Shown piece by piece: positions 561-62,859 of a DNA stretch of 64,000 bases. The stretch spans positions 16,691-80,690 of the forward strand of contig JACRAE010000006.1 of NCBI GenBank assembly GCA_016213525.1, given 5' to 3'. The position numbers and the translations under genes were made by a program. Numbering within the stretch: position 1 is the first letter of the stretch; each line of letters begins with the position of its first letter. This stretch comes from Candidatus Aenigmatarchaeota archaeon (GTDB taxonomy: Archaea; Aenigmatarchaeota; Aenigmatarchaeia; CG10238-14; SCSR01). Below the pieces are notes generated by a model. That model made no database searches and was not told the DNA's origin. It was given only the letters and a program-made list of their open reading frames with translations.

Positions 561-1601
561 TTAGATTCCCAGGAAACCGAGCTGTATCATTATCATGAAC
601 GCCCCCACGGTGATGCCGGCGAGTATTACGCTGTGCTTTATTCCGGCCTTAACGGAGCCCTCGCTTATCTGACCCGCTATTATCCCGGACAGTATGGACT
701 GTATCAGGGCCATCATGAAGAACAGGGAGGTGTAGTAGGTAGATATCTGGTTCAGGACGCCGACGTCCTTCAGCTTGCATATGCTCTCGACCTGCTTCGC
801 GGGGGCCAGCATGCACTGGTACAGGTTGTTGTACACGTTCTCGCATATCGCACATTCCAGGCCGGTGCAGGTGCTGCACGGGTTCTCCAAGGCTATGACG
901 GCCGAGACAGCCCCTCCGGAGGCCGTGTCCTGGCCGGAGCTGAATATCGGTATCAGGAACTTGCTTATCGCGGCTATTATGACGACGAAGATTATCGATA
1001 TGGCGTACATCAGCAGCACGTACTGGCTGAGGAGGCTCTTCTTCTCCTTCTCGGCGTCCTCCAGGCTGTTGGCGCTGTCGGCCACAGATTCGAGGGTCGT
1101 CACCACCTGCCCGCCCGACAGGAAAGACTCGCGTATGATTCTCGATGACGCGTATATCCTCTTGCTCACCTTCATCCTCTCGGAGAACCTGTCGAGGACC
1201 TTGTCGAGGGTCACGCCCCAGCTTATCTGGTGCGCCATCTTCTTCACCTCCGGGCTCAGCGCGCCGTAGTCGTTCTTGCTGGCAGTTATTATCGCCTTGT
1301 GGAACGGCATGCCAGACCTGATGTTCTCTGTCAGGTCCCTCAGGAACGCGGGGAAAGTCTCTTCCATTTCCTTGATCCCCCGGAACTTCTGGTAGTATAT
1401 CAGAATTTGAGGCGTGACGTTGACGAAGACGCCGATTACGAAGAATATGCCGAGCACGCCCACGTTCCCGCTCAGGAAGCCTACGAGTATCGTGACCGCC
1501 GTCAGAGACATCGTTATTATGAGTATGTGCCTCGGGTCCGTGAAGTCCAGGTTCAGGCTCTTCTTCTCTTCCTTGCGGTGGGGCCTGTGTGTGGTCTGCA
1601 T
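561..1601 (-). CDS. Type II secretion system F-domain membrane protein (TadC/FlaJ-like)
   Basis: Multi-TM protein with the GspF/TadC-like architecture, placed between the secretion ATPase and a pilin. It contains an unusual six-cysteine cluster, CSTCTGLECAICENVYNNLYQC. Confidence 0.6.
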   Translation of the reverse strand: MQTTHRPHRKEEKKSLNLDFTDPRHILIITMSLTAVTILVGFLSGNVGVLGIFFVIGVFVNVTPQILIYYQKFRGIKEMEETFPAFLRDLTENIRSGMPFHKAIITASKNDYGALSPEVKKMAHQISWGVTLDKVLDRFSERMKVSKRIYASSRIIRESFLSGGQVVTTLESVADSANSLEDAEKEKKSLLSQYVLLMYAISIIFVVIIAAISKFLIPIFSSGQDTASGGAVSAVIALENPCSTCTGLECAICENVYNNLYQCMLAPAKQVESICKLKDVGVLNQISTYYTSLFFMMALIQSILSGIIAGQISEGSVKAGIKHSVILAGITVGAFMIMIQLGFLGI

Positions 1602-1602
1602 T

Positions 1603-2472
1603 CTATTCCCCTCCCGGCGTCGCCGACTTTATCATCATGATGAAGGCCGCGGATATGATCGGCATGAACAGGAATATCAACGTGAACTGCAGCATTATGA
1701 TGTTCTCCCCACCCCCGGATATTCCGGACACTATGGCCGTCAGTACGGTGAAAAATATCGCCCCGAGGACTATCGACGTCAGGTAGATCTCAACGTAGAC
1801 CGTGAGGGCGTGCGAGAACTCGTAGAGGGACCTCCTGTAGTCGGCCATGTATGCCTCTGACTTTTCCTTCAGGTAGATGTTCATGTTGGCCCCTGACTTG
1901 AGGGTGGACAGCATCCCATACAGCATCTCCCGGAACTTCTTGCTCGGGGACCTTTCTATGGCCCTTTCGAGCGCGGTCGCGACGTCGAGCCCGAAGAGCT
2001 TGATGTCCTCGTTTATCGAGTTGATCTGCTTCACAACCTCCCCGTACTTCAGGAACTTGGTGAACACGTCGAAGCTCTTGTGGAGGGGGAGGTTCGAGCT
2101 CGATATGGTGGAGAGGTACATCGTGGCGAACGGCAGCGCGTCGTCTATCTCCTTCGACTTGCCCTGTATCACGAGCTTCGGGTACTGGGGCAGGGCGAAG
2201 AAAACCCCCATAGTAACTATAAGGGAGACGAGAGTCGAAAGGAGGAAACCGAAGAGGAAGTCCGACAGGAGCAGGCCGAAGACGAACGACAAAACCGGCA
2301 GCATCACTATGAGGGATATCAGGCTCACCGTCATGGACATGCTGATGAACTCCTGGACGGTGAGCGGCATTTCCGCCCTCTTCAGGTCCGCCTTGAGGTC
2401 CGGGAAGTATGGGACTATGGCGTCGCTGTATTCCTTGAAGAGCTGGAAGGAGAGCTTCTGCAGGTCTCCCAA
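1603..2472 (-). CDS. Type II secretion system F-domain membrane protein (TadB/FlaJ-like)
   Basis: Polytopic membrane protein 1 bp downstream of the ATPase gene. It is the second TadB/C-like subunit. Confidence 0.6.
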   Translation of the reverse strand: MGDLQKLSFQLFKEYSDAIVPYFPDLKADLKRAEMPLTVQEFISMSMTVSLISLIVMLPVLSFVFGLLLSDFLFGFLLSTLVSLIVTMGVFFALPQYPKLVIQGKSKEIDDALPFATMYLSTISSSNLPLHKSFDVFTKFLKYGEVVKQINSINEDIKLFGLDVATALERAIERSPSKKFREMLYGMLSTLKSGANMNIYLKEKSEAYMADYRRSLYEFSHALTVYVEIYLTSIVLGAIFFTVLTAIVSGISGGGENIIMLQFTLIFLFMPIISAAFIMMIKSATPGGE

Positions 2473-2473
2473 A

Positions 2474-4375
2474 TCACTCGCCTCCGGTTATGGTTGCCAG
2501 CACCCTGTTCGGATAATGATAGTACATGTTCACGACTTCGTAGACGTTCTTGTATTCGGTTATGTTCTTCTCGAGCATCCAATTCAGTACGATCATCCTC
2601 CTTCTCATCTCATCGAACACATCCTGCTCCGACATGCCCGTGGCCTCGGTTATCTTCTTCAAGAGGACAGATTTCGACGCGGTCTCGACGTCGTCGTTTA
2701 TCGAGTTCCACTTGAAGACGGTGTTCGTGACCGGGAAGTCTGCGTCCTGGGGGAAGTCGACCATCTCCACGACCTCGTTCATCCTCCTCACGAACTTGTC
2801 CCTGTATCTCACCCTCAGCAGGAATATCACCAGGTCCAGGCTGCCGACGAGAGTCTTCGGCAGGGATATAGGCGCGGTGGTGAGGCGATCCACCAGCTTG
2901 TCCATGTTTTCCGCGTGTATCGTGGAGTATGACGGGTGACCCGTCGCCATCTGTTGGAACAGGACGAAAGCCTCTTGGCCCCTGACCTCTCCCACGATTA
3001 TGTAGTCCGGCCTCTGCCTCAGGCTCTCCTTCAGCAGCGCGAACATGTCTATCTCGTTTGAGTTCTGCGACGTCGCCACCGTGGTCCTAGCCACAGTCGG
3101 CACCCAGTGAGGGTGCGGCAGCCTGAGCTCGGCCGTGTCCTCGATCGATATTATCTTCTTGTCCGGCCTGATGAAGAGCGATATGGCGTTCAGGAAGCTA
3201 GTCTTTCCCGAGGCCGTGCCTCCGGACACCAGGATGCTGCGCCCATAGTCGACGGCCATCCACAGGTACGCGAGGTTCCTCACGTTCACGCTCCCGTACT
3301 TCAAAAGATGTATCGGCGTTATGGGCTCGTCGCTGAACTTCCTGATTGTGAAGTTGCTCCCCTTCCTCGCTATGTCCGTGGCGAGGGTGGCCTGCAGCCT
3401 GCTCCCGTCGGGCAGGGCGCCGTCCAGCAGGGGCTCCGACACGGAGAGGGACTTGCCAGTGAGCTGCCCGAGCTTGGTGATGAAGGAGTCGAGCTCGTCG
3501 CCGTCGTAGAATATTATGTTAGTCGCGATGGATCCGAGCTCCGGGTTCCTATGGAAGACGAAAATGGGTATTCCTATGCCGTCGCAGCTGATGTCCTCTA
3601 TCTGGATGTCATGCATTATCGGCTCTATCTTTCCGAGACCCATGAAGTCCCTCTCTATGAAGTACTGGAGTATCCTCTTCTCCATGTCCGTTATCTCGAA
3701 ATTATAGTAGTCGAGGAGCTTGTCAATCTCGCTCCTCAGGTAGTCTGTGGCTTCGGATATCTTCAGCCTGGAGAAATCGACGTCGAGCTTCTCCTCGAGC
3801 AGCTCCTTGACCTTAGCTATGACGCCCTTGATGTTGTCCGTTATCTGGGGCTCCACGACCTCGTACTTGTAGCTGTTCGTCTTCGCGTCCCAGGATATCT
3901 TGGCGTAGGCCATTATCGGCTCCCCTTTAGTGGGGTTCCTGGGTATCAGGGGGTAGGTGAGCGTCTTCATGGGCTGCATCTCCTGCCTGACCTCCGACAT
4001 CTTCGCCTTGCTCTCCATCGATGGTATCTCGTACCCCTCTATGCTGACGGCGTTTTTTATCAGCTCCCTCTTCTCGGGTTTCTCCAGAACCTGCTGTACC
4101 TGGACTGGCTGCTGCATCTGAACGGGCTGCTGTTGGACCTGGGCCGGCTGCTGCGGATACGGGGCGCTCGGATAGTTGCCGGAGAACCTCATGTTCACCG
4201 GTATCTGCACCGGGGACACTATAGGCTGTATGAAAATCGGTATGTTCCTGCCCTGTCCGCCGGGACCCACCTCTATAGGGCCCTGTGCCTTTGAGGACTC
4301 CTCGTAGTACTCCTTCAGCCTCTTCTTTCTGTATCCGTTCGCCATGACGCGGAACGTGTGTTTACCTAGGTTCAT
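2474..4375 (-). CDS. FlaI/TadA/VirB11-family secretion ATPase with a Q/P-rich N-terminal extension
   Basis: Walker A SGGTASGKTSFLNA. Asp/His boxes typical of type II/IV secretion NTPases. About 120 aa of low-complexity PQQPAQVQQQPVQ sequence at the N-terminus. Confidence 0.85.
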   Translation of the reverse strand: MNLGKHTFRVMANGYRKKRLKEYYEESSKAQGPIEVGPGGQGRNIPIFIQPIVSPVQIPVNMRFSGNYPSAPYPQQPAQVQQQPVQMQQPVQVQQVLEKPEKRELIKNAVSIEGYEIPSMESKAKMSEVRQEMQPMKTLTYPLIPRNPTKGEPIMAYAKISWDAKTNSYKYEVVEPQITDNIKGVIAKVKELLEEKLDVDFSRLKISEATDYLRSEIDKLLDYYNFEITDMEKRILQYFIERDFMGLGKIEPIMHDIQIEDISCDGIGIPIFVFHRNPELGSIATNIIFYDGDELDSFITKLGQLTGKSLSVSEPLLDGALPDGSRLQATLATDIARKGSNFTIRKFSDEPITPIHLLKYGSVNVRNLAYLWMAVDYGRSILVSGGTASGKTSFLNAISLFIRPDKKIISIEDTAELRLPHPHWVPTVARTTVATSQNSNEIDMFALLKESLRQRPDYIIVGEVRGQEAFVLFQQMATGHPSYSTIHAENMDKLVDRLTTAPISLPKTLVGSLDLVIFLLRVRYRDKFVRRMNEVVEMVDFPQDADFPVTNTVFKWNSINDDVETASKSVLLKKITEATGMSEQDVFDEMRRRMIVLNWMLEKNITEYKNVYEVVNMYYHYPNRVLATITGGE

Positions 4376-10560: not shown

Positions 10561-10680
10561 GGGAGGGTAGCTTAGCCTGGTTGGAGCGATCGACTTATAT
10601 GTCGACTAAGCGCCTGTCGCATGCTCTTGGGCATCGACTAGGAAATCGATAGGTCGCGGGTTCAAATCCCGCCCTTCCCA
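10561..10680 (+). tRNA. tRNA-Ile (anticodon TAT) with a ~45-nt intron in the anticodon loop
   Basis: Cloverleaf read by eye. Acceptor GGGAGGG/CCTTCCC, D-arm GCTT-AGCCTGGTTG-GAGC, anticodon stem ATCGA/TCGAT, loop CTTATA-[intron]-A, T-arm GCGGG-TTCAAAT-CCCGC, discriminator A. A TATA-like ATATTAAAT lies ~25 nt upstream. Confidence 0.7.
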
Positions 10681-21930: not shown

Positions 21931-23118
21931 CTACGCCAGGAAGTCGAGGGCGCCCTCTTCCAGCTTCATCTCCTTCTCGAGTCCTCCCCTGAAGCCGTCT
22001 TCCTTCGCCATTATCCTCAGGTAAGGTAGCATCTCCCACTTGATCTTCCTGGACGAGCAGTGGAGCTCCTTGGTCATGATTGAAAACACCTCCTTGGTCG
22101 CTGCCCTGCTGCCCTTCGTCCTTCCCATAATTGCTATGTTCTGCGGATACTGATACCTGACGTACTTCCTGTAGGGCGCCTTCTTCGACACGGCCACGCC
22201 GCCCGTCATCATGTCTATCATGTAGGCGAGGAACTTCCAGTTCTGCCTGGAGCGTATCCTGTTCCTGAAGACGTCGGCCCTGCTGAGCATGTCGTACGCC
22301 TTCGCCACCTCCTCCGGGTCCTCGTACTCGCCTGTGATGTTGTTCTCTATCCACCAGAATATCTCGTCCGGCTCCTTGTCCACGTTCCCGATGGAGTCGC
22401 GTGCCATTCTCGCCGACGTTGCCTTGAAGAGCGCCCCCATCGCGTCGAATATGCTGACCTCCCTCTCCCTCAGGCCTGAGTGGCGCATATCTTCTACTGT
22501 GGGTTTGACGCTCCTGCACACGAGTTCGAGGTCGTTTATCGCCGATCTCATGTCGCCGCCGGACTTCTTCGCTATGTCGTGTATGTAGTCCCTGCTGACG
22601 AAGACCCTCTCGGCGTCCGCGATGAGCTGCAGCCTCTTCATCACGTCCCACACGGTAAGCTTCCTGAAGGCGACCATGTCCGCCCTCTTCCTCAGCTCGT
22701 AGAGCTTCTTGCTGTACGGGTCGTTCGCTATCATGACTACCGGATACTTGCTGCTCTCGACTATCCTGATCATCTCGCCGACGCCTCCCTTGTCCTCGTA
22801 TCCGGATATGCCGTCCACCTCGTCGAACAAAAATATCTTGCCGCGGTTGAAGAGCGACTTCTGCGACACGGCGCTGCTCATCGTCTCGCTGAGTTCCTTC
22901 GAGCTCCTGAGGTCCGACGCGTTCGTCTCGATGAGGTCTATGTTGTTCTCGCGCGCGAACGCGTACACGAGAGTCGTCTTTCCAACCCCCGGCGGCCCGT
23001 GCAGGACGACCCCCTTTCCGGGCTTCCAGTCGCGCATCCACTTGACGAAGTCTTCGACGGCAGATTTCTGTCCCACGTAGGCGGAGAGCTTGTCCGGCCT
23101 GTATTTTTCCGTCAGCAT
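21931..23118 (-). CDS. rfcL: Replication factor C large subunit
   Basis: MLTEKYRP..HGPPGVGKTT. Extended C-terminus. Confidence 0.85.
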   Translation of the reverse strand: MLTEKYRPDKLSAYVGQKSAVEDFVKWMRDWKPGKGVVLHGPPGVGKTTLVYAFARENNIDLIETNASDLRSSKELSETMSSAVSQKSLFNRGKIFLFDEVDGISGYEDKGGVGEMIRIVESSKYPVVMIANDPYSKKLYELRKRADMVAFRKLTVWDVMKRLQLIADAERVFVSRDYIHDIAKKSGGDMRSAINDLELVCRSVKPTVEDMRHSGLREREVSIFDAMGALFKATSARMARDSIGNVDKEPDEIFWWIENNITGEYEDPEEVAKAYDMLSRADVFRNRIRSRQNWKFLAYMIDMMTGGVAVSKKAPYRKYVRYQYPQNIAIMGRTKGSRAATKEVFSIMTKELHCSSRKIKWEMLPYLRIMAKEDGFRGGLEKEMKLEEGALDFLA

Positions 23119-23122
23119 GGAA

Positions 23123-24091
23123 TCACTTCTTTGACAACAAGGAGACCTGCGCGAGGAACGCCTCTATCTGGATGAGCTCGTTCCCGCCTTCGGATATGCG
23201 GAAGTCGTACTCGCCGCACTTGTCTATCAGGACCATTTTCTTCTCCTCGGGCATGTCGAACGAATAGATCTGCCTGTGGATCTCCGACAGCACGTCGGAC
23301 CCGGCCAGGCCCTGCTTCAAAAGAAGGTCCTGAAGCATCTTCCTCGACTCAGAGAAGTTCCCGGATATCGCCTGGTTCAGCATGTCCCTCACGTCGTTCG
23401 GCTTCGCCCTGCTCGCCGCGTCGTAAATCGAGTCCTGGCTTATCTTGCTGCCGAGCGAGGCGGCGGACTGCATCAGGTTCGACACCCTCCTGAGGTCGCC
23501 CTCCGTTATCTCGATTATCGCGTTGACCGCGCCGCCGTCCAGATCCAGCTTCTCCGACTTCGCCACCCTGTCTATGTATGTCTTTATGTCGTCCTCGCTC
23601 AGCGACCTGAACCTGAAGACGGCGCACCTGCTCTGTATCGGCTCGATTATCTTCGTGGACCAGTTGCAGATCAGTATGAACCTGGATATCCCCGTGTGGC
23701 TCTCCATGGTCCTCCTCAGGGCCTGCTGCGCGTCCTGAGTAAGAGCGTCCGCCTCGTCCAAAATGACTATCCTGAACTGCACGCCGCCTATAGGCTTCGT
23801 CCTCGCGAACTCCTTGACCTTGTGCCTGATGACGTCTATCCCCCTCTCGTCGGACGCGTTCAGCTCTAGGACGTTCTTCTTCCATTCCGTCCCGTATAGC
23901 TCCCTCGCCAGCGCCAGGCCCATAGTGGTCTTGCCCGTGCCCGCAGGACCCGCGAACATGAGGTGCGGTATGTGCTTGTCCTTCACGAAGGCCTTCATCC
24001 TGTCGGTGACGTGCTTCTGGTTTATCACGTCGGCCAGCATCCTAGGCCTGTACTTCTCCGCCCAAATCTCCAAGACCATAACATTCCTCAA
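23123..24091 (-). CDS. rfcS: Replication factor C small subunit
   Basis: WAEKYRP. FAGPAGTGKTT. DEAD box ILDEAD. SRC motif. No intein. Confidence 0.9.
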   Translation of the reverse strand: MRNVMVLEIWAEKYRPRMLADVINQKHVTDRMKAFVKDKHIPHLMFAGPAGTGKTTMGLALARELYGTEWKKNVLELNASDERGIDVIRHKVKEFARTKPIGGVQFRIVILDEADALTQDAQQALRRTMESHTGISRFILICNWSTKIIEPIQSRCAVFRFRSLSEDDIKTYIDRVAKSEKLDLDGGAVNAIIEITEGDLRRVSNLMQSAASLGSKISQDSIYDAASRAKPNDVRDMLNQAISGNFSESRKMLQDLLLKQGLAGSDVLSEIHRQIYSFDMPEEKKMVLIDKCGEYDFRISEGGNELIQIEAFLAQVSLLSKK

Positions 24092-24112
24092 TTCGGATTC
24101 GGGGTATTTATC

Positions 24113-25165
24113 CTATTCTGGGAACCTGACCAGGGCGTCGTTGTTGTCCTCGTCCATCTCCTTAACCTCTCCCTTCCAGTCCGCCTGTATCCTTATTTCC
24201 TTCACATCGGACGGTATCTTGGCGTTCGTCACCCTGCTGGATATACCAGAGCCAGGCGAGATGGAAGGTATTATGGAGAACTTCGGCGCCGTCAACGATT
24301 CTATAATCTCGCCGTCAGCGAAGAACCCTATCGAGGAATGTACAGAGTCTTTTATTCCAACGTTCCTTATAGTCACGCTGACGTCCATGAAGCCGCCCTT
24401 CTTCACCACTGAGACGTTGGACAGGGTCAGGTCGGACAGGGCGTCCCCCTTGTAAATCGAGCCTATCGCATCCACCGTAATCTTGGTTATGTTCTGCCTG
24501 CAGTCGAGCTCGTTGGGGTACATTATGTCGCCATATCCCGGAGGCGCGTGGCCGAGGCCGAGCACGTGGCCCATCTCGTGCACGGGCCTGTTGACTCCGA
24601 CGCACTTGTTGTCGGTCGGCAGGAGGAATATCTCGCCACCCGCAATGAGGGTGTACTTGCCGTCCGTCTCAATTGCCTTCGTGGGTCCGCCCTCTCCCAC
24701 GACCCTGCTCGTCGGCGTGTCGGAGAGGCTGGGGAACCATGATATGATGATTTCAGACTCTTCCTTTGAGCCGACCTCCTGGAACGATATGACGCCGCCC
24801 GTCTTCTCCTCCCACGTCCCCATGGCCTGCCTCACGTATTCCGGGTCGTCGCTGCCGAAGCCTACCAGACCGGAGCCGCTAGAGACGTCCATGTAGTACC
24901 TCAGAGGCATGTGGTTCCACCTCGGATTGGGGAACAGCGTCGGGTAAACAATGTCCTTCCCGCCGCTGACGAAGCGCAGGTTGTTCTCTGCCACCTCTGC
25001 CTCGTCCTCCTCGATTATCTGTCCCGTTTCAGACTCCTGCGGCCCGCTTGCCGTGTCTCCCCGGAGTCCCAGATTCGACGCGTCTATGTAGCCGCCCTGC
25101 ATCAAGAAGTACCCCGCTCCCGCTATCAAAATCAATATTGCGACCAGTGTGATAGCCGTCGACAT
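24113..25165 (-). CDS. Membrane-anchored matrixin-like zinc metalloprotease
   Basis: HEMGHVLGLGH (HExxHxxGxxH). N-terminal TM helix. Beta-rich C-terminal domain. Seven nt downstream of the giant surface protein gene. Confidence 0.7.
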   Translation of the reverse strand: MSTAITLVAILILIAGAGYFLMQGGYIDASNLGLRGDTASGPQESETGQIIEEDEAEVAENNLRFVSGGKDIVYPTLFPNPRWNHMPLRYYMDVSSGSGLVGFGSDDPEYVRQAMGTWEEKTGGVISFQEVGSKEESEIIISWFPSLSDTPTSRVVGEGGPTKAIETDGKYTLIAGGEIFLLPTDNKCVGVNRPVHEMGHVLGLGHAPPGYGDIMYPNELDCRQNITKITVDAIGSIYKGDALSDLTLSNVSVVKKGGFMDVSVTIRNVGIKDSVHSSIGFFADGEIIESLTAPKFSIIPSISPGSGISSRVTNAKIPSDVKEIRIQADWKGEVKEMDEDNNDALVRFPE

Positions 25166-25171
25166 AACTGT

Positions 25172-28100
25172 CTATTTCGCGACCTGCCTTAATACGATTA
25201 GCCCGTTCCTTCCCGCGGCGTCCGAGAGGAGCACGTTGAAGGTGTAGACCTTACCGGAAACCAGGCACGGCTCAAGGGATATGTCCCAGAAACCGTTCGA
25301 GAACGCGGTCGAGTTCGTATTCTGTGTCCCCTCAACTTCCACCCTCACAGTGCCGGACGATGAGAACGAGCCCGACGCCGGGTCGGTCACCGTGCCGGTC
25401 AGCCTCCATTTCTGCGCCGCGCACGTCGTCTGAGGAGGCAGAGATGATGAGCCAAAGATTCTAGATACGAAGTATCCAGACTTGCCGTTCGTGTCGTTGA
25501 CGAATATACCGAGCGTGAATCCGGTGTTGTTGAGGTCGGTCCTCGAGTAAATAGGAATGCTCCACTGAGCCCCGCTTATCGTCGCCGATCCGGAATCTCC
25601 GGTCTCGAGTATCGTGGCAGTCGCAATGCCGCTCGTCATCTGCAATCCGGTCAGTGAGTACAGGGACCTAGCCGTGATTTCTATCGTCGAGAGTACTTGC
25701 TCTAGTTGGGCGCTCAGGTTCTGGTAGGACGTGACGTTCAGGGACGTCGAGTACGGGAAGTAGCCGCTCTTGCTGGCCGATATGACGTAGTTCGAGAAGT
25801 ACAGGTAGCCGGAAGTCTGGTTGTATGTTCCATTAGCCATGAACTCGGAGAGGAGCTGCGTCGGTATCTGGCCCGTCGAGTTCGTGGTAGCGGAGAAGTT
25901 CGAGGACGGGTTGTCCGTGTTTGCTACTGATGCGGTGTCGTTCCCATAGATGAGGGCTCCGTTCACTGCATTGTTAGATTGGTCTCTGACAACGGCGTTC
26001 ATTCTGTGTTGGACGAATAGTTTGGTGGATGTTGAGGCCCCGTTGTAGGGGAAAGTTATTGCCGATCGGTTGAAGGTCGCGTTGACGAGGTATCCGTATT
26101 TACTCGATGAAACCCCGCCCAGAGCCAAGCTGCTTTTTCCCGGGAGGTTCGTGATGTTTATGTCGTAGAATGTGTTGTTGTTCGAATCGTAAATTATCAT
26201 GCCAGAGTTTGTGACGCCGGTGTTAGTCGCTTTGACCATGTTGATTATGTCCCTGTAGACGACGTTGTTGCTGCCGCTGAAATATTCTCCCACTACCAAG
26301 TCCGTGCCGCCGACATTTTCAGTGACGGTCATATTGTTGCCCACCAGGGCGTTGTTGCTGCCGCTCACGTATATCCCATATTGCCACCCGGTAATTCCCA
26401 CGGTGTTGTTTAACACGCTGTTCCAAGAAGTCTCGATGTATATGCCGGAGTTTCCGGGGCTTCCCTGGCAGGACACGAGAAGATTCCCTATGACGATGGT
26501 TGAGTTGGCGCTGGACTCTAGATGTATGCAGGCATTGGCGGAGTTCTGATAGCCAGACGTCCTGATTTCATTATAACCTATCATGTTTTTGGTGGAACCT
26601 GACGATCCAGTCACGTATACGCCCTTGTCGTTGTAGTTCCCAGAGGCTGTTATGTTGTTGTAGGTGAAGTTGTTGGAGCCGGAGGATGATATCAGTATAG
26701 CCTCGTTTGTGTTGGTGCCGTTCGTGGATATGTTGTTTAAGGAAAATACGTTTGAATTGGAAGATGAGAAGAGATAGATTCCGTTGTTCCCAGATGAGGC
26801 ACCATTCGTCGATATTGTGTTTTGGGTGAAATTGTTACCGGAGCTGCTCTGGACGTAAATCCCTAAATTACCGCCACCCGAATTGACGCCCACTGATATG
26901 ATATTCTGTTGTATCGTGTTGTTATCGTCACCGCCATGTAGCCTTATGGCGATGTTGTTGTCACCGCCCGCAATGTTTATGGTGTTGTTCTCTATCCTAC
27001 CAGAAACGGACCCAGTGTAGTAGTGGACACCGTGTCCATAATTGCCCGAGCCCGTGTTGTTTATGACATTGTTGTATACAGTGGCATTTACTGATGTCAC
27101 ATAGACGGAGAAGAGGCTGGAAGTAGAGCCGTTGTATAGTATCACCATGTCTTTTACAGTCACATTGTTCGCAGTTATGTAAAGCGGATGACTGGAGTTA
27201 GACCATATCATAGGTCTTGTGGATGCGTTGCTCGTCAGAGTAAGGCCCGTGACGTTCACGGTGACGTTCTCGTTGTACTGGGCGTATTCTATCAGACTCT
27301 GTCCTATCCCGCCATTCCAGAGGATGGAACGTTCGTTGTCGGTGAGAGCCCTGTCCCATATGGAGAACTCATCTATCGTCGAGTTTGTGTATGTAGACTC
27401 GGCCGAGGACGCTATCGTGGGGTATCTGGTGGGAGCCCCAGATATCCCATAGACGGGATTCACACTGCTCGCCGCCTTCAGCTGATTGTCGACGTATATC
27501 CTGGCCCGATTGGAGGAGTTCGAGTCAGTGCTGTCGATGACGAGCGTTACCATGTGGAAGTTCCCGTCCGCTGGCAGGGCGTCCACCGGAGTCTGAAGAC
27601 CCAAAATATCCTGGGTCCCTCTTATATTGACGCCGAGTGTTCTTGTGGACCTCAGCAGCAGTTCAAACCCAGACTCCGAGAAGACTGTCCTGGCGTCGGA
27701 AAATATCGCCGCGCGCGAGCTCGTCGGATACTCGGTGAGCTTTATCCAAAGGTTCATCGACGTCGTCATTGAGCTGCCGCCCTGGTAGTGCAGGAACTCC
27801 CACTTGGTGGTGTTGGACCCCGAATGTGCCTCAGAGTAACCGTAAGGCGCGCCGCTCGCGACATACCAAAACGCACCGCCCAGCTTGCCCGCCGCCCTGG
27901 TGACGTTTGGCCGCACGCTCATGTTGCCGTCGGATCCTATACTCGAACCCGCGTTCAGTGAGCCCGCCATGTTGGTAAGATTTCCATCCGAATTGTCGAA
28001 CATGTAATACGCCTTGATATTGGACATGGATATCCCACTCGCCTTTTTCTCCACCATCACGACCGTCTGGCCGGAAGTGGCGTTGTTTATCGCGGCCTGT

Positions 28101-28996
28101 ATCGTAGGATGGCAGATGCTCGTCTCGTTCACGCATACGGTAGCCTCCGTGACATAGCTGATAATCACAATACCCGAGCCACCGTTACCTCCGGTAGAAG
28201 TTCCGCTTGCGCTACCGCCGCCATCTCCCGTATTTGCGCTTGCTGTAACGCCAGCACAATTCCCACAGGAGCTAGATTTTGCCTCGCCTCCCGTTGACCG
28301 ATTTACCGAGGAGCCTGATATTGAAGACGATAGGCCTACACCACCTGCAATCAAGCTTCCAGTTCCATCGAGACCTATAGAGCCCGCACCACCGCCTGAA
28401 CCACCGGCATTACCATTACAGTTACCGCCATTGTTACCTTGACCGGCTGGCGATGCGGAGCCCGCACCACCACTACAGGTATTTCCTCCTCCCGAACCGC
28501 CACCAGAACCACCGCTACCGCCGCCAAGAGCAGGCGGTCCGCCACCCTCACCGTAACCGCCGCGCCCACCACCAGCCGAGGTTATAGTTGAAAATGTTGA
28601 ATCGGTTCCATAAGCACCATAATCACCAAATACCCCGCCCGACCCGCCGGAACCCACGGTAATTGTATAACTCTGAGAGGTCACAGCAAAATTTGTCCCA
28701 TTTCTATAACCGCCCGCCCCGCCCCCGCCACCGGAACGGCTTGTTGTCGCACCACCGCCTCCACCACCACCCGCAACTACAAGATAATCCACGTTGCCGC
28801 CGCTCGTAACTGTGAACGTCCCGTTAGAAGTGAACGTGTGGATTGTCCTATCGCCATAATACGTAATCGTTCCGCCCGTGGCCCTGACCGCGTCCGCTTC
28901 CGGAACTACGAGGGAAAAGGCCACCAAAAAAGACAGGGCAAAGACCGACGAGAACGCGGTGAGGGAGACTAGGGACGGTGCTGTTCGGCTGCTCAT
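25172..28996 (-). CDS. Giant secreted glycine-rich / parallel beta-helix surface protein (1274 aa)
   Basis: Signal peptide. Gly-rich domain (VVAGGGGGGG...). LamG/ConA-like segment. Many PbH1-like NxT/NxS-rich beta-helix repeats. High density of N-glycosylation sequons. Confidence 0.8.
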   Translation of the reverse strand: MSSRTAPSLVSLTAFSSVFALSFLVAFSLVVPEADAVRATGGTITYYGDRTIHTFTSNGTFTVTSGGNVDYLVVAGGGGGGGATTSRSGGGGGAGGYRNGTNFAVTSQSYTITVGSGGSGGVFGDYGAYGTDSTFSTITSAGGGRGGYGEGGGPPALGGGSGGSGGGSGGGNTCSGGAGSASPAGQGNNGGNCNGNAGGSGGGAGSIGLDGTGSLIAGGVGLSSSISGSSVNRSTGGEAKSSSCGNCAGVTASANTGDGGGSASGTSTGGNGGSGIVIISYVTEATVCVNETSICHPTIQAAINNATSGQTVVMVEKKASGISMSNIKAYYMFDNSDGNLTNMAGSLNAGSSIGSDGNMSVRPNVTRAAGKLGGAFWYVASGAPYGYSEAHSGSNTTKWEFLHYQGGSSMTTSMNLWIKLTEYPTSSRAAIFSDARTVFSESGFELLLRSTRTLGVNIRGTQDILGLQTPVDALPADGNFHMVTLVIDSTDSNSSNRARIYVDNQLKAASSVNPVYGISGAPTRYPTIASSAESTYTNSTIDEFSIWDRALTDNERSILWNGGIGQSLIEYAQYNENVTVNVTGLTLTSNASTRPMIWSNSSHPLYITANNVTVKDMVILYNGSTSSLFSVYVTSVNATVYNNVINNTGSGNYGHGVHYYTGSVSGRIENNTINIAGGDNNIAIRLHGGDDNNTIQQNIISVGVNSGGGNLGIYVQSSSGNNFTQNTISTNGASSGNNGIYLFSSSNSNVFSLNNISTNGTNTNEAILISSSGSNNFTYNNITASGNYNDKGVYVTGSSGSTKNMIGYNEIRTSGYQNSANACIHLESSANSTIVIGNLLVSCQGSPGNSGIYIETSWNSVLNNTVGITGWQYGIYVSGSNNALVGNNMTVTENVGGTDLVVGEYFSGSNNVVYRDIINMVKATNTGVTNSGMIIYDSNNNTFYDINITNLPGKSSLALGGVSSSKYGYLVNATFNRSAITFPYNGASTSTKLFVQHRMNAVVRDQSNNAVNGALIYGNDTASVANTDNPSSNFSATTNSTGQIPTQLLSEFMANGTYNQTSGYLYFSNYVISASKSGYFPYSTSLNVTSYQNLSAQLEQVLSTIEITARSLYSLTGLQMTSGIATATILETGDSGSATISGAQWSIPIYSRTDLNNTGFTLGIFVNDTNGKSGYFVSRIFGSSSLPPQTTCAAQKWRLTGTVTDPASGSFSSSGTVRVEVEGTQNTNSTAFSNGFWDISLEPCLVSGKVYTFNVLLSDAAGRNGLIVLRQVAK

Positions 28997-29038: not shown

Positions 29039-29479
29039 TCAGACTATTTTCTCCCTCAAATAGAGCTCCGACTCGTAAAGGTCGTCCGGAACGTCCGCGG
29101 CGTCTATGAAGAACACGTCGTTCAGACCCGCCAGGCTGGAGAGCTTGGATTTGAGCCTCTCCCTCGTGAGGTTCGTCTCCACCTCGTACGCTATCATGTT
29201 GTCCATGTCCAGAACATCGACTATGCCGCCGTTGACCTCCACCTCCGTTCCGACCCTCCTCTTCATGCCCCTCAGTATCTTGAATATGGACGCCTTCACG
29301 AGCCAGTGCTTCATCGTCTCGCTGCCCGCGTTAGGGAACAGGCAGTTCTCGCCCTTCTGTGAGATGACGAATCCGTTTTCCTTCAAGAGCTCCCTGGATC
29401 TGAAGTACGGTATGCCGTTTTGGCTCCTCAGTCCGTACCTCCTCACCCTTTCGCCCACGCTCTTCTTCCGATTCTGCAT
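29039..29479 (-). CDS. Hypothetical protein (possible PD-(D/E)xK-like fold)
   Basis: ORF with a DVLD..AYEVET segment. Fold assignment is speculative. Confidence 0.3.
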   Translation of the reverse strand: MQNRKKSVGERVRRYGLRSQNGIPYFRSRELLKENGFVISQKGENCLFPNAGSETMKHWLVKASIFKILRGMKRRVGTEVEVNGGIVDVLDMDNMIAYEVETNLTRERLKSKLSSLAGLNDVFFIDAADVPDDLYESELYLREKIV

Positions 29480-41187: not shown

Positions 41188-41281
41188 GGGCCCGTAGCTC
41201 AGCTTGGATAGAGCGGCAGACTTCTAGACCCGAGAGGGTGGAGAGATCTGAAGGTCGAGGGTTCAAATCCCTCCGGGCTCA
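41188..41281 (+). tRNA. tRNA-Arg (anticodon TCT) with a ~19-nt intron
   Basis: Acceptor GGGCCCG/CGGGCTC. D-arm GCTC-AGCTTGGATA-GAGC. Anticodon stem GCAGA. Loop CTTCTA + intron. T-arm GAGGG-TTCAAAT-CCCTC. Purine-purine pair at 27:43. TATA-like TAATTTAAT upstream. Confidence 0.7.
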
Positions 41282-54248: not shown

Positions 54249-54345
54249 AGCCTCAACTGGGATTTGAACCCAGGACCCCTTCCTTACCATGGAATTTAGC
54301 TAGTTTTTCCTAACTATGTGCTCTACCGGGCTGAGCTATTGAGGC
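54249..54345 (-). tRNA. tRNA-Thr (anticodon GGT) with a ~23-nt intron at a non-canonical position (26/27)
   Basis: Minus-strand read. GCCTCAA-TA-GCTC-AGCCCGGTA-GAGC-A-[CATAGTTAGGAAAAACTAGCTAA]-ATTCC-ATGGTAA-GGAAG-GGGTC-CTGGG-TTCAAAT-CCCAG-TTGAGGC-T. No canonical anticodon arm is possible without removing the insert. Coordinates ±1. Confidence 0.55.
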
Positions 54346-62740: not shown

Positions 62741-62745
62741 GTCAT
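62380..62745 (-). CDS. HNH endonuclease
   Basis: GKCENCG..FDFHHKN..N..VICKKCH. Canonical HNH zinc-binding motif. ATG overlaps the tRNA-Glu discriminator. Confidence 0.7.
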   Translation of the reverse strand: MTIREIFKRMESHRQIMSLTIKPEKGSIMDWIEEYEKSLDKKPEIEPKIRKKRTKIPFGLQKRIMARSRGKCENCGTLLFNIKFDFHHKNYDPSDPRESNLMVICKKCHVKLTGPVPKKKL

Positions 62746-62758
62746 GCTCCCTGCGGGA
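62741..62758. repeat. Direct repeat B (GTCATGCTCCCTGCGGGA) spanning the tRNA-Glu 3' end and the HNH start codon
   Basis: Pairs with 61733–61750. Confidence 0.8.
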
Positions 62759-62859
62759 TTTGAACCCGCGTTTCCACCTTGCTTCTCTCATCCGATGTGT
62801 CAAATCTTTCGAAGTCAATCGAAAGGGTGGAGTCCTTGACCGGGCTAGACGAAGGGAAC
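62745..62859 (-). tRNA. tRNA-Glu (anticodon TTC) with a ~40-nt intron
   Basis: GTTCCCT-TC-GTCT-AGCCCGGTCAA-GGAC-T-CCACC-CTTTCGA-[40-nt intron]-GGTGG-AAAC-GCGGG-TTCAAAT-CCCGC-AGGGAGC-A. Confidence 0.65.

What the first reader, a model, noticed from the sequence alone, without database searches (positions are those of the whole stretch)
24113..28996. Operon of a 1274-aa glycine-rich beta-helix surface protein and a membrane-anchored matrixin-like zinc protease
The large protein has four parts. First a signal peptide. Then a Gly-run domain (..LVVAGGGGGGG..GGGGGAGG..) of the type seen in tail-fibre and adhesin proteins. Then a LamG/ConA-like module. Then more than 20 parallel beta-helix-like repeats packed with N-x-S/T sequons.

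Seven nt downstream, on the same strand, is a protease with HEMGHVLGLGH, an N-terminal TM anchor and a beta-rich C-terminal domain.

Together they are a candidate cell-surface adhesin or S-layer-like protein with a dedicated processing or maturation protease. The domain combination is not a standard annotated archaeal S-layer type.
Basis: partly seen in the sequence, partly recalled or inferred. Interest (0 to 1): 0.6.

Follow-up and report, generated by a model that had tools for sequence, protein, structure and literature searches.

The report
Modular archaeal surface protein plus ectoprotease
In a tiny symbiotic-type archaeon (Aenigmarchaeota), a large secreted sugar-binding-type surface protein is followed by a membrane-tethered collagenase-like zinc protease. 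The part shared with relatives is a previously unnamed 175-residue C-terminal domain, and the protease is a later, optional neighbour rather than a proven dedicated partner.

Summary
Both ORFs are real and lie on the minus strand: 25172-28996 (1274 aa) and 24113-25165 (350 aa), separated by 6 nt. Their exact protein sequences are on record as hypothetical proteins of a Candidatus Aenigmarchaeota MAG.

The large protein has these parts:
- a signal peptide;
- Gly_rich_2;
- a roughly 13-coil beta-helix (not more than 20 coils) with a LamG domain nested in its cap;
- a beta-rich middle domain;

The protease has an N-terminal membrane anchor, an acidic linker, a matrixin-fold catalytic domain and a CARDB domain.

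The CTD is the only part shared by the genes found upstream of protease orthologues, where the rest of the protein ranges from nothing to more than 3000 aa. It defines an unannotated family of 137 clusters. The CTD is C-terminal in 120 of 133 members, and no member has a C-terminal membrane segment. The family gene sits directly upstream of the RFC clamp-loader genes, including in two loci that have no protease. Two protease loci have no CTD gene. So the pair is co-conserved only within one sub-lineage, and it is not obligate.

Best reading: a cell-surface adhesin-type protein of a new CTD family, plus a co-transcribed surface protease. A dedicated processing role is unproven, with probability about 0.2-0.3.

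The parts
25172..28996 (-). ORF of the 1274-aa secreted modular surface protein (NCBI HY833_03455)
   Evidence: ORF listed. It has a 100% match to P0001.
28889..28996 (-). Predicted Sec signal peptide, aa 1-36, ending ...PEADA|V
   Evidence: Hydropathy peak at aa 6-37, and no other hydrophobic segment anywhere in the protein. The cleavage site is inferred, not predicted by a dedicated tool.
28154..28831 (-). Glycine-rich domain (Pfam Gly_rich_2), aa 56-281
   Evidence: 63.6 bits against a cut-off of 24.3, matching profile positions 1-225 of 226. It also matches phrog_2295 at E 2.5e-41. This is the only part shared with most of the 1395 database hits.
27332..27766 (-). LamG / ConA-like domain (Laminin_G_3 match at aa ~411-555; the whole insert is about aa 330-572), nested in the N-terminal cap of the beta-helix
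   Evidence: 53 bits against a cut-off of 27.6 when the segment is scanned alone. It is 64% identical to P0002/L045. The relative P0150 has the same cap sequence without the insert.
26117..27277 (-). Right-handed parallel beta-helix, aa 574-960, about 13 coils of 23-30 aa
   Evidence: Beta_helix scores 30.2 bits against a cut-off of 25.9 in the isolated segment, and NosD scores 21.2 bits. A 28-29 aa periodicity exceeds all 200 shuffles. The close relative P0146 lacks about 109 residues (~4 coils).
25700..26116 (-). Beta-rich middle domain, aa 961-1099, with no family assignment
   Evidence: No Pfam hit. It is conserved in P0002/L045 (54% identity), P0146 and P0150.
25175..25699 (-). Conserved C-terminal domain (CTD), aa 1100-1274. 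It is a tandem duplication of an ~85-aa beta-sandwich unit. Two Cys are invariant in the 28-sequence alignment (C1192, C1244). It also has a near-invariant sequon (N1228-S-T) and the tail ...LRQVAK-stop.
   Evidence: 42-49% identical to the C-termini of the genes upstream of protease orthologues, which otherwise differ. A profile finds 137 clusters, and the CTD is C-terminal in 120 of 133. The two halves align with hhalign probability 99%. No Pfam or NCBIfam family reaches its cut-off, and there is no PDB relative by sequence.
24113..25165 (-). ORF of the 350-aa membrane-tethered matrixin-like zinc endopeptidase with a CARDB domain (NCBI HY833_03450)
   Evidence: There are 22 orthologues at 44-87% identity, and a CARDB hit is on record for all of them.
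25097..25159 (-). N-terminal transmembrane signal-anchor, aa 3-23
   Evidence: Hydropathy and a helix at aa 3-23 in the model. It is followed by an acidic disordered linker at aa 27-58 (pLDDT below 50).
24455..24985 (-). Matrixin-fold catalytic domain, aa 61-237. Includes HEMGHVLGLGH (aa 196-206, nt 24548-24580), the Met-turn M215, and Cys188 and Cys222, both invariant in the 23-sequence alignment.
   Evidence: Peptidase_M10 scores 31.4 bits against a cut-off of 24. Invariant residues are listed in alignment A1. Foldseek top hits are MMP-8, karilysin and MMP-13, with target-normalised TM-scores of 0.6-0.67. The family profile hits karilysin at E 2.7e-8.
24137..24433 (-). CARDB beta-sandwich domain, aa 245-343
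   Evidence: 38.6 bits against a cut-off of 22.7. The model shows beta strands with pLDDT around 90.
21931..24091 (-). Context: RFC small subunit (23123-24091) and RFC large subunit (21931-23118). They are co-oriented with the pair, 21 nt and 4 nt from their upstream neighbours, and are probably on the same transcript.
   Evidence: ORFs. Orthologous synteny. No oligo-T run occurs between the genes, and TTTTATTTT follows the RFC-L stop.

Best explanation
Shown:
- The large gene encodes a Sec-exported, disulfide-containing modular protein with no membrane anchor of its own.
- It is the local member of an Aenigmarchaeota family built as signal peptide + exchangeable 'payload' + a fixed ~175-aa C-terminal tandem beta-sandwich (CTD).
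- In this genome the payload is a glycine-rich domain, a LamG lectin-type domain nested in a ~13-coil beta-helix, and one more beta domain.
- The downstream gene encodes a matrixin-fold zinc endopeptidase with all catalytic residues. A single N-terminal helix and a ~35-residue acidic linker tether it, and a CARDB domain follows the catalytic domain.

Inferred:
- The protein is probably N-glycosylated.
- The CTD is the part that holds or assembles the protein on the cell envelope. It is the only constant part, it always sits at the extreme C-terminus, and in many relatives it is the whole mature protein.
- The payload domains are of carbohydrate-binding or adhesin type and contact glycans of a partner cell or substrate.
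- The protease catalytic and CARDB domains face outward.
- The two genes are transcribed together, probably along with RFC-S and RFC-L.
- The protease works at the cell surface as a general ectoprotease, doing peptide scavenging or trimming and shedding of envelope or host-surface proteins. The neighbouring protein is a possible substrate, not an exclusive or required one.
- The protease was added to, or retained in, this locus only in one sub-lineage.
For: Domain content and structure:
- The catalytic HExxHxxGxxH motif, Met215 and the two Cys are invariant in 23 orthologues.

The CTD as the constant part:
- The CTD is shared at 42-49% identity by upstream genes of 206, 529, 1274, more than 773, more than 1860 and 3235 aa, whose other domains differ.
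- The CTD family has 137 clusters, with a length mode near 180-220 aa (signal peptide + CTD only).
- The CTD ends within 8 aa of the C-terminus in 120 of 133 members.
- None of 112 members has a hydrophobic C-terminal segment.
- Two Cys are invariant in the 28-sequence CTD alignment. The CTD sequon is near-invariant there. Across the wider family a sequon-W-PC motif is found in 54 of 112 members. These features fit an extracellular glycoprotein.

Payload exchange:
- P0150 is signal peptide + short beta-helix + middle domain + CTD, with no Gly-rich or LamG part.
- P0002 carries the LamG-in-beta-helix cassette at another locus, without the CTD or the protease.

The protease as an optional neighbour:
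- L052 and L055 have the CTD gene next to RFC-S with no protease.
- L002 and L005 have the protease without a CTD gene upstream.

Transcript and biology:
- Spacers are 6 nt and 21 nt, and no oligo-T run occurs until after RFC-L.
- Published background says LamG-like and CARDB-containing secreted proteins are expanded in DPANN and are thought to mediate host contact (PMC5498576).
- Aenigmarchaeota lack amino-acid biosynthesis and carry many extracellular or membrane peptidases (PMC8407114).
Against: - No experiment or localisation data exist.
- The signal peptide, glycosylation and topology are inferred from sequence alone.
- The structure model of the large protein was unusable (pLDDT 43). The CTD fold is therefore known only from weak CarboxypepD_reg and Big_13 similarities and generic Ig/fn3 matches.
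- The anchoring role of the CTD is an argument from architecture, and no binding partner is identified.
- The tight 6-30 nt CTD-protease spacing in six loci would also fit a specific functional pair.
- The beta-helix could be an enzyme, such as a polysaccharide depolymerase, rather than an adhesin.
Confidence: 0.55

Rival explanations
1. Dedicated pair. The membrane-tethered matrixin recognises the CTD of its upstream neighbour and processes it. It would either remove the CTD, release the payload, or mature and attach the protein. This would resemble a C-terminal sorting domain with its cognate peptidase.
For: - In six distinct loci the CTD-ending gene lies 6-30 nt upstream of the protease orthologue on the same strand, although everything N-terminal of the CTD has been exchanged.
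- Both products are predicted to be on the outside of the membrane.
- The protease has no pro-peptide, and its long flexible tether would let it reach envelope proteins.
Against: - Each partner occurs without the other. L052 and L055 have the CTD gene with no protease. L002 and L005 have the protease with no adjacent CTD gene.
- The CTD family (137 clusters at 50% identity) is much broader than the protease family (23 clusters at 90% identity).
- The whole region down to MCM is syntenic, so adjacency can simply be inherited.
- No conserved cleavage motif could be separated from shared ancestry.
- No CTD-protease fusion was found, and profile comparison shows no similarity between the CTD and the protease, CARDB domain included.
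Confidence: 0.22
2. The large protein is not an adhesin but a surface-exposed or secreted polysaccharide-degrading enzyme. The beta-helix would act as a depolymerase, as in phage tailspikes, with LamG as the binding module. It would be used to breach a host's glycan layer, with the protease acting on the protein part of the same envelope.
For: - Beta_helix and NosD-type coils are present.
- The Gly-rich N-terminal domain matches a phage PHROG family of unknown function (phrog_2295, E 2.5e-41) and, weakly, a tail-fibre-assembly family.
- From general knowledge, many right-handed beta-helix proteins are glycanases or lyases.
Against: - No hit to any glycoside-hydrolase or lyase family at E <= 0.1.
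- No usable model was available in which to look for a catalytic groove.
- Related family members carry non-enzymatic payloads (LamG or Ig-like only) or none at all.
Confidence: 0.13
3. The CTD-family protein is the S-layer (lattice) protein, or a core S-layer subunit, of Aenigmarchaeota. The CTD would be the lattice or anchoring domain, and the payload a species-specific outer face.
For: - The gene sits at a fixed syntenic locus.
- Only one copy was seen in each stretch examined.
- It has a signal peptide, a modest sequon enrichment and a conserved disulfide.
- The outer part is extremely variable while the C-terminal part is constant. From general knowledge, this is the usual pattern for S-layer proteins.
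Against: - The mature size ranges from about 175 aa to more than 3000 aa, which is unusual for a lattice subunit.
- No hit to known S-layer families.
- Other CTD proteins sit at unrelated loci, one of them in a probable integrated element. That suggests a family of cargo proteins rather than one structural protein.
- Copy number per genome could not be measured.
Confidence: 0.1

Closest known systems
Karilysin and vertebrate MMP catalytic domains (MEROPS M10A, matrixins)
   Same: - HExxHxxGxxH motif and a Met-turn ('DIMYP').
- The N-terminal 'P-R-W-x4-L-x-Y' strand of the catalytic domain.
- Pfam M10 above its cut-off.
- Best structural matches are MMP-8 and karilysin.
   Different: - The host is an archaeon.
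- There is an N-terminal membrane anchor instead of a cleaved signal peptide plus pro-peptide.
- There is no Cys- or Asp-switch pro-domain.
- The residue after the third His is Ala (A/I/L/V/S across the family), not the matrixin Ser.
- No His lies between aa 86 and 195, so the structural-zinc ligands of MMPs are absent.
- A CARDB domain replaces the haemopexin or T9SS-type C-terminal domain.
MMP-23 (type II membrane MMP with a C-terminal Ig-like domain). This comparison is from general knowledge and was not tested here.
   Same: The order of parts is the same: N-terminal signal-anchor, then a matrixin catalytic domain without a classical cysteine switch, then a C-terminal Ig-like beta-sandwich.
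   Different: There is no detectable specific relationship, so the shared layout is convergent. MMP-23 is released by furin cleavage and has a toxin-like domain. Neither feature is seen here.
LamG-, CARDB- and beta-helix-containing secreted surface proteins of DPANN archaea (for example Mia14, PMC5498576) and archaeal beta-helix/PKD surface-layer proteins
   Same: Large, strain-specific secreted proteins built from LamG, beta-helix and Ig-like modules, in a reduced-genome archaeon that is presumed to depend on a host.
   Different: - Here the variable modules are attached to a defined, family-specific C-terminal tandem domain at a fixed locus upstream of RFC.
- An N-terminal Gly_rich_2 domain is added. 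This domain is otherwise seen mostly in bacterial (CPR, Planctomycetota) giant proteins.
Shared anchoring or sorting modules of surface-protein families: T9SS C-terminal domain with PorU, PGF-CTERM with archaeosortase A, and SLH or CWB2 domains with Cwp84 (from general knowledge)
   Same: One conserved terminal module is attached to many unrelated cargo domains. In some of these systems a surface protease processes the family members.
   Different: - The CTD here is 175 aa and is a tandem repeat.
- It has no C-terminal transmembrane helix (0 of 112 members).
- It has no match to T9SS, PGF or other sorting-signal models.
- No sortase-like enzyme is nearby.
- The only neighbouring peptidase is optional.
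CarboxypepD_reg / Big_13-type beta-sandwich domains
   Same: The motif 'I-x-G-x-v-l-D-x-x-T-G-x-p-I-x-s-G-x-V' and the ~85-aa repeat size are shared. There are weak hits in 5 of 28 and 3 of 28 members respectively.
   Different: No member of the CTD-only alignment reaches a Pfam cut-off. The family also has its own signature: two invariant Cys, an N-x-T sequon, W...PCL, and the tail Q-[VI]-A-K or Q-K-Y-P-A-[KR].

Membership tests
Matrixin / Peptidase_M10 (metzincin clan) | Zinc-binding consensus HExxHxxGxxH | tested here: met
   HEMGHVLGLGH at aa 196-206. H196, E197, G199, H200 and H206 are invariant and G203 is near-invariant (>=90%) in 23 orthologues.
Matrixin / Peptidase_M10 (metzincin clan) | Conserved Met-turn downstream of the third His | tested here: met
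   M215 is invariant, in the context 'GDIMY/F'.
Matrixin / Peptidase_M10 (metzincin clan) | Profile score above the curated cut-off, and an MMP-type fold | tested here: met
   PF00413 scores 31.4 bits against 24. Foldseek top hits are MMP-8, karilysin and MMP-13 at probability 1.0, with target-normalised TM-scores of 0.6-0.67. The family profile hits karilysin at E 2.7e-8.
Matrixin / Peptidase_M10 (metzincin clan) | Ser directly after the third zinc-binding His (the matrixin subfamily hallmark; from general knowledge) | tested here: not met
   The window protein has Ala207. The family shows A, S, I, L or V at this position.
Matrixin / Peptidase_M10 (metzincin clan) | Pro-peptide with a cysteine switch (PRCGxPD) | tested here: not met
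   There is no Cys before C188. The region between the TM helix and the catalytic domain is an acidic disordered linker followed by a beta-hairpin.
Matrixin / Peptidase_M10 (metzincin clan) | Structural-zinc site (His/Asp ligands in the S-loop) | tested here: not met
   There is no His between aa 86 and 195 of the window protein (sequence). This was judged from sequence only.
Archaemetzincin (Peptidase_M54) | Profile match and the HExxHxxGxxHC...C.M Cys-rich motif | tested here: not met
   No PF07998/M54 hit at E <= 0.1. Ala, not Cys, follows the third His.
CARDB domain | Profile score above the cut-off | tested here: met
   PF07705 scores 38.6 bits against 22.7 at aa 245-343. A CARDB hit is on record for all 22 orthologues.
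Gly_rich_2 (PF21722) | Full-length profile match above the cut-off | tested here: met
   63.6 bits against 24.3, covering profile positions 1-225 of 226.
Laminin_G_3 / ConA-like lectin | Profile score above the cut-off | tested here: met
   53 bits against 27.6, but only when aa 291-576 is scanned alone. The hit is not reported in the whole-protein scan.
Right-handed parallel beta-helix (Beta_helix / PbH1) | Profile match plus regular coil periodicity | tested here: met
   22.1 bits (below the cut-off) in the whole protein, and 30.2 bits against 25.9 in the segment. A 28-29 aa periodicity exceeds all shuffles, giving about 13 coils. The structure model was too poor to confirm the fold.
Known archaeal S-layer protein families | Match to an S-layer family profile | tested here: not met
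   No such Pfam or NCBIfam family at E <= 0.1.
C-terminal sorting signals (PGF-CTERM/archaeosortase type, T9SS CTD) | A C-terminal transmembrane helix with a basic tail, or a match to the sorting-domain profile | tested here: not met
   The large protein has no hydrophobic segment outside its N-terminal signal peptide, and 0 of 112 family members has one in the last 40 aa. No NCBIfam sorting-domain hit.
Aenigmarchaeota CTD family (defined here) | ~175-aa tandem beta-sandwich at the extreme C-terminus, with two invariant Cys and the W...PCL motif | tested here: met
   The window protein is the first row of alignments A2, A3 and A5, with C1192, C1244 and N1228-S-T.

The most novel reading that the evidence does not exclude
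The tandem beta-sandwich CTD is a previously unrecognised cell-surface sorting or anchoring module of Aenigmarchaeota. In the window's sub-lineage it has acquired a cognate membrane-tethered matrixin that recognises the CTD and matures, attaches or sheds the cargo. That would be an archaeal, metalloprotease-based counterpart of CTD/PorU-type or sortase-type systems. The variable payload would then be a swappable host-recognition head.
Probability: 0.12. Interest if true: 0.7.

Novelty: new variant of a known kind. Interest (0 to 1): 0.4.

Why it matters
DPANN archaea are thought to live attached to other cells, yet it is largely unknown how their large, fast-changing surface proteins are held on the envelope.

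A constant C-terminal module that carries exchangeable LamG, beta-helix or Ig heads at a fixed genomic locus gives three things:
- a concrete handle for finding the surface proteome of Aenigmarchaeota in metagenomes;
- a defined domain to test for envelope binding;
- a natural series of head swaps that may track host range.

The matrixin-like ectoprotease adds an archaeal, pro-peptide-less, membrane-tethered branch to a protease family known mainly from animals and a few bacteria.

If the protease proves to be CTD-specific, it would be a new kind of surface-protein maturation system. If not, the pair is an ordinary example of surface genes in a compact genome.

Tried and rejected
- **Structure of aa 291-1274.** Only a 4-sequence alignment was possible, and the model had mean pLDDT 43. 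Its Foldseek search gave no match at E <= 0.001, only generic fn3/Ig hits. It was not used as evidence.
- **CTD profile in the word-indexed protein search.** This returned only 2 hits, because low-complexity candidates saturated the pre-filter. The exhaustive representative search was needed instead.
- **Genome-collection and metagenome scans with the protease alignment.** Apart from a contig already in hand (L022 is the same contig as L004), these gave one true orthologue locus (L005) and otherwise only distant M10-like genes of Nitrososphaera and bacteria.
- **CTD in viral contigs.** None were found. The broader alignment was too divergent for that tool.
- **CTD against PDB sequences, Pfam and NCBIfam.** Nothing reached a cut-off.
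- **Similarity between the CTD and the protease, CARDB domain included.** None was found (hhalign probability 0.15%). No CTD-protease fusion proteins were found.
- **Bacterial-type promoter and terminator scan.** Counts were at chance level, as expected for an archaeon.
- **Archaemetzincin (M54) and S-layer assignments.** Both were considered and rejected for lack of any hit.
- **A cleavage motif specific to protease-linked CTDs ('GRSLY').** This was considered but cannot be separated from shared ancestry.

Full report
**1. What is at the coordinates.**

The window is archaeal. It carries MCM, RFC, aIF2-beta, AlaRS and intron-containing tRNAs. Both target proteins are exact matches to hypothetical proteins HY833_03455 and HY833_03450 of a Candidatus Aenigmarchaeota MAG.

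On the minus strand, ORF 25172-28996 encodes 1274 aa and ORF 24113-25165 encodes 350 aa. Six bases separate them. RFC-S follows after 21 nt and RFC-L after a further 4 nt. No oligo-T run interrupts this series, and TTTTATTTT follows the RFC-L stop. The likely transcription unit is therefore four genes, not two. This is an inference.

**2. Anatomy of the large protein.**

- **Signal peptide.** There is a hydrophobic N-terminus at about aa 6-37 followed by ADA|V, and no other hydrophobic segment in the protein.
- **Gly_rich_2.** Matched over its full length at aa 56-281, 63.6 bits. It also matches a large phage family of unknown function, and weakly a tail-fibre-assembly PHROG.
- **LamG.** Missed in the whole-protein scan but clear when the segment is scanned alone (53 bits).
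- **Beta-helix.** Also passes its cut-off in the isolated segment (30.2 bits).
- **Nesting.** Comparison with the relative P0150 shows that the LamG domain is inserted into the N-terminal cap of the beta-helix.
- **Coil number.** A 28-29 aa periodicity exceeds every shuffle and gives about 13 coils, not more than 20. The close relative P0146 has about four fewer coils.
- **Sequons.** There are 43 against 30.5 +/- 4.6 expected (p ~0.006). Inside the beta-helix the excess is not significant, because that region is 17% Asn.
These are a beta-rich domain at aa 961-1099 with no family assignment, and a C-terminal domain at aa 1100-1274.

**3. The protease.**

- **Family hits.** Peptidase_M10 and CARDB both pass their Pfam cut-offs.
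- **Conservation.** Twenty-two orthologues at 44-87% identity all have CARDB on record, and most also M10. Across the 23-sequence alignment the invariant residues include H196, E197, H200, H206, M215 (the Met-turn), C188 and C222. G203 and the 'QNIT' sequon are nearly invariant.
- **Structure model.** The AlphaFold model is good (pLDDT 84.6). It shows a TM helix at aa 3-23, a disordered acidic linker at 27-58, a catalytic domain at 61-237 and a beta-sandwich at 245-347.
- **Fold and sequence relatives.** Foldseek places the catalytic domain with MMP-8, karilysin and MMP-13. The family profile finds karilysin and MMP-12 by sequence.
- **Differences from textbook matrixins.** It lacks a pro-peptide with a cysteine switch. 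It has Ala rather than Ser after the third His. It lacks the histidines that bind the structural zinc.

It is therefore a divergent, membrane-tethered, matrixin-like enzyme that is probably active. It is not an archaemetzincin.

**4. The test of co-conservation.**

Contexts of protease orthologues show a strongly syntenic block: protease, RFC-S, RFC-L, three small genes, an OB-fold protein and MCM.

The gene directly upstream of the protease differs greatly between loci:

| Locus | Upstream protein |
|---|---|
| L001 | 3235 aa, multi-LamG/DUF2341 |
| L003 | more than 1860 aa |
| L048 | more than 773 aa |
| L049 | 529 aa, Ig-like |
| L050 | 206 aa |

All of them end in the same ~175-aa domain as the window protein. 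Identity is 42-49%, and the tail is ...L(R/K)xVAK. Spacing to the protease is 6-30 nt.

Two loci (L002, L005) have toxin-antitoxin-type genes upstream instead and no CTD gene. The only long homologue of the LamG/beta-helix part (P0002) lies at a different locus. It has neither the CTD nor the protease.

**5. The CTD is a family of its own.**

- A three-sequence profile searched exhaustively against 1.84 billion representatives found 137 clusters, 76 of them at E < 1e-10.
- In 120 of 133 proteins the domain ends within 8 residues of the C-terminus.
- Lengths run from about 180 aa to 3235 aa, with a mode near 180-220 aa. The short proteins are just a signal peptide plus the CTD.
- None of 112 members has a C-terminal hydrophobic segment. 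63% end in A-K, A-R or A-P.
- Named members are Aenigmarchaeota.
- The domain is an internal duplication of an ~85-aa unit (hhalign probability 99%).
- It has two invariant Cys, a near-invariant N-x-T sequon and a W...PCL motif.
- It has only sub-threshold similarity to CarboxypepD_reg and Big_13. It has no NCBIfam family and no PDB relative by sequence.
- Payloads in other members include a short beta-helix, LamG domains, Ig-like domains, or nothing.

**6. The CTD gene is older at this locus than the protease.**

In L052 (GCA_016198705.1, RFC-S 61% identical) a stand-alone 194-aa CTD gene sits 59 nt upstream of RFC-S. In L055 a 2254-aa CTD protein does the same. Neither locus has a protease.

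Protease-bearing loci all have RFC-S at 76% identity or more to the window. The protease is therefore a feature of one sub-lineage, inserted or retained between the CTD gene and RFC-S. Other CTD proteins lie elsewhere, one of them beside an integrase and a TraG-like ATPase.

**7. Interpretation.**

Shown:
- a secreted modular protein, and an outward-facing matrixin-like protease whose catalytic motifs are intact;
- a new, phylum-restricted C-terminal domain family with exchangeable N-terminal payloads at a fixed locus;
- a protease-CTD adjacency that is conserved in one sub-lineage but is not obligate in either direction.

Inferred:
- the CTD anchors or assembles the protein on the envelope;
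- the payload binds glycans of a partner cell;
- the protease is a surface ectoprotease whose substrates may include, but are not limited to, its neighbour.

The published picture of DPANN surface proteins (PMC5498576) and of peptidase-rich, amino-acid-auxotrophic Aenigmarchaeota (PMC8407114) fits this reading. The dedicated-processing model remains possible at about 0.2, and the experiments listed under next steps would decide it.

**8. Verdict.**

The large protein and the protease are each recognisable kinds. The new element is the CTD family and its conserved locus. Interest is moderate (0.4), and the novelty class is a new variant of a known kind.

Noticed in passing
window 21931-28996 (-); L052 8001-10792; L055 8001-18463: A secreted CTD-family gene sits directly upstream of, and in the same orientation as, the clamp-loader genes RFC-S and RFC-L. 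This holds across Aenigmarchaeota loci down to 59% RFC-S identity. In the window no oligo-T run occurs until after RFC-L. Why a surface-protein gene stays in front of replication genes is unexplained; it may be neutral synteny.
   Followed up: partly
L002 2992-5289 and 8315-11398; L046 956-3253; L050 11805-14102; L052 12612-15770; L055 14989-17259 and 20307-22765: In several relatives RFC-S and/or MCM carry inteins (Intein_splicing, LAGLIDADG). The window's RFC-S (322 aa) and MCM (671 aa) are intein-free.
   Followed up: no
window 10561-10680, 41188-41281, 54249-54345, 62745-62859: Rfam calls tRNAs of 94-120 nt at these positions. ARAGORN misses three of them and reads a 4-base anticodon for the fourth, which fits intron-containing archaeal tRNAs.
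   Followed up: no
window 27281-28141 (-), aa ~286-572 of the large protein: The LamG domain is nested inside the N-terminal cap of the beta-helix, between '...CHPTIQAAINNATSGQTVVMV' and 'YNENVTVNVTGLTLTSN'. The relative P0150 has the same cap without an insert.
   Followed up: partly
window 29039-29479 (-): This 146-aa ORF lies 42 nt upstream of the large gene on the same strand and has no family hit. It has homologues a few kb upstream of the CTD genes in L055 (4646-5068) and at the start of L049 (1-159). Its function is unknown.
   Followed up: partly
L056 1-10649: The CTD-family protein P0148 (882 aa, Cys-rich N-terminal part) lies beside an integrase, a TraG/VirD4-like ATPase and a Cdc6-like gene on a 1.94-Mb contig. 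This may be an integrated mobile element carrying a CTD protein.
   Followed up: no
L050 4536-9961: Between TctA and the stand-alone 206-aa CTD gene lie six ORFs: Helicase_C 597 aa, then 84, 72, 241 and 473 aa, and DUF2341 193 aa. The DUF2341 piece and its neighbours may be remnants of a disrupted larger payload gene.
   Followed up: no
window 561-4375 (-): A type IV pilus or archaellum-type secretion ATPase (T2SSE, 2474-4375) lies here with two adjacent ORFs (561-1601, 1603-2472). This may be another surface-structure locus in the window.
   Followed up: no
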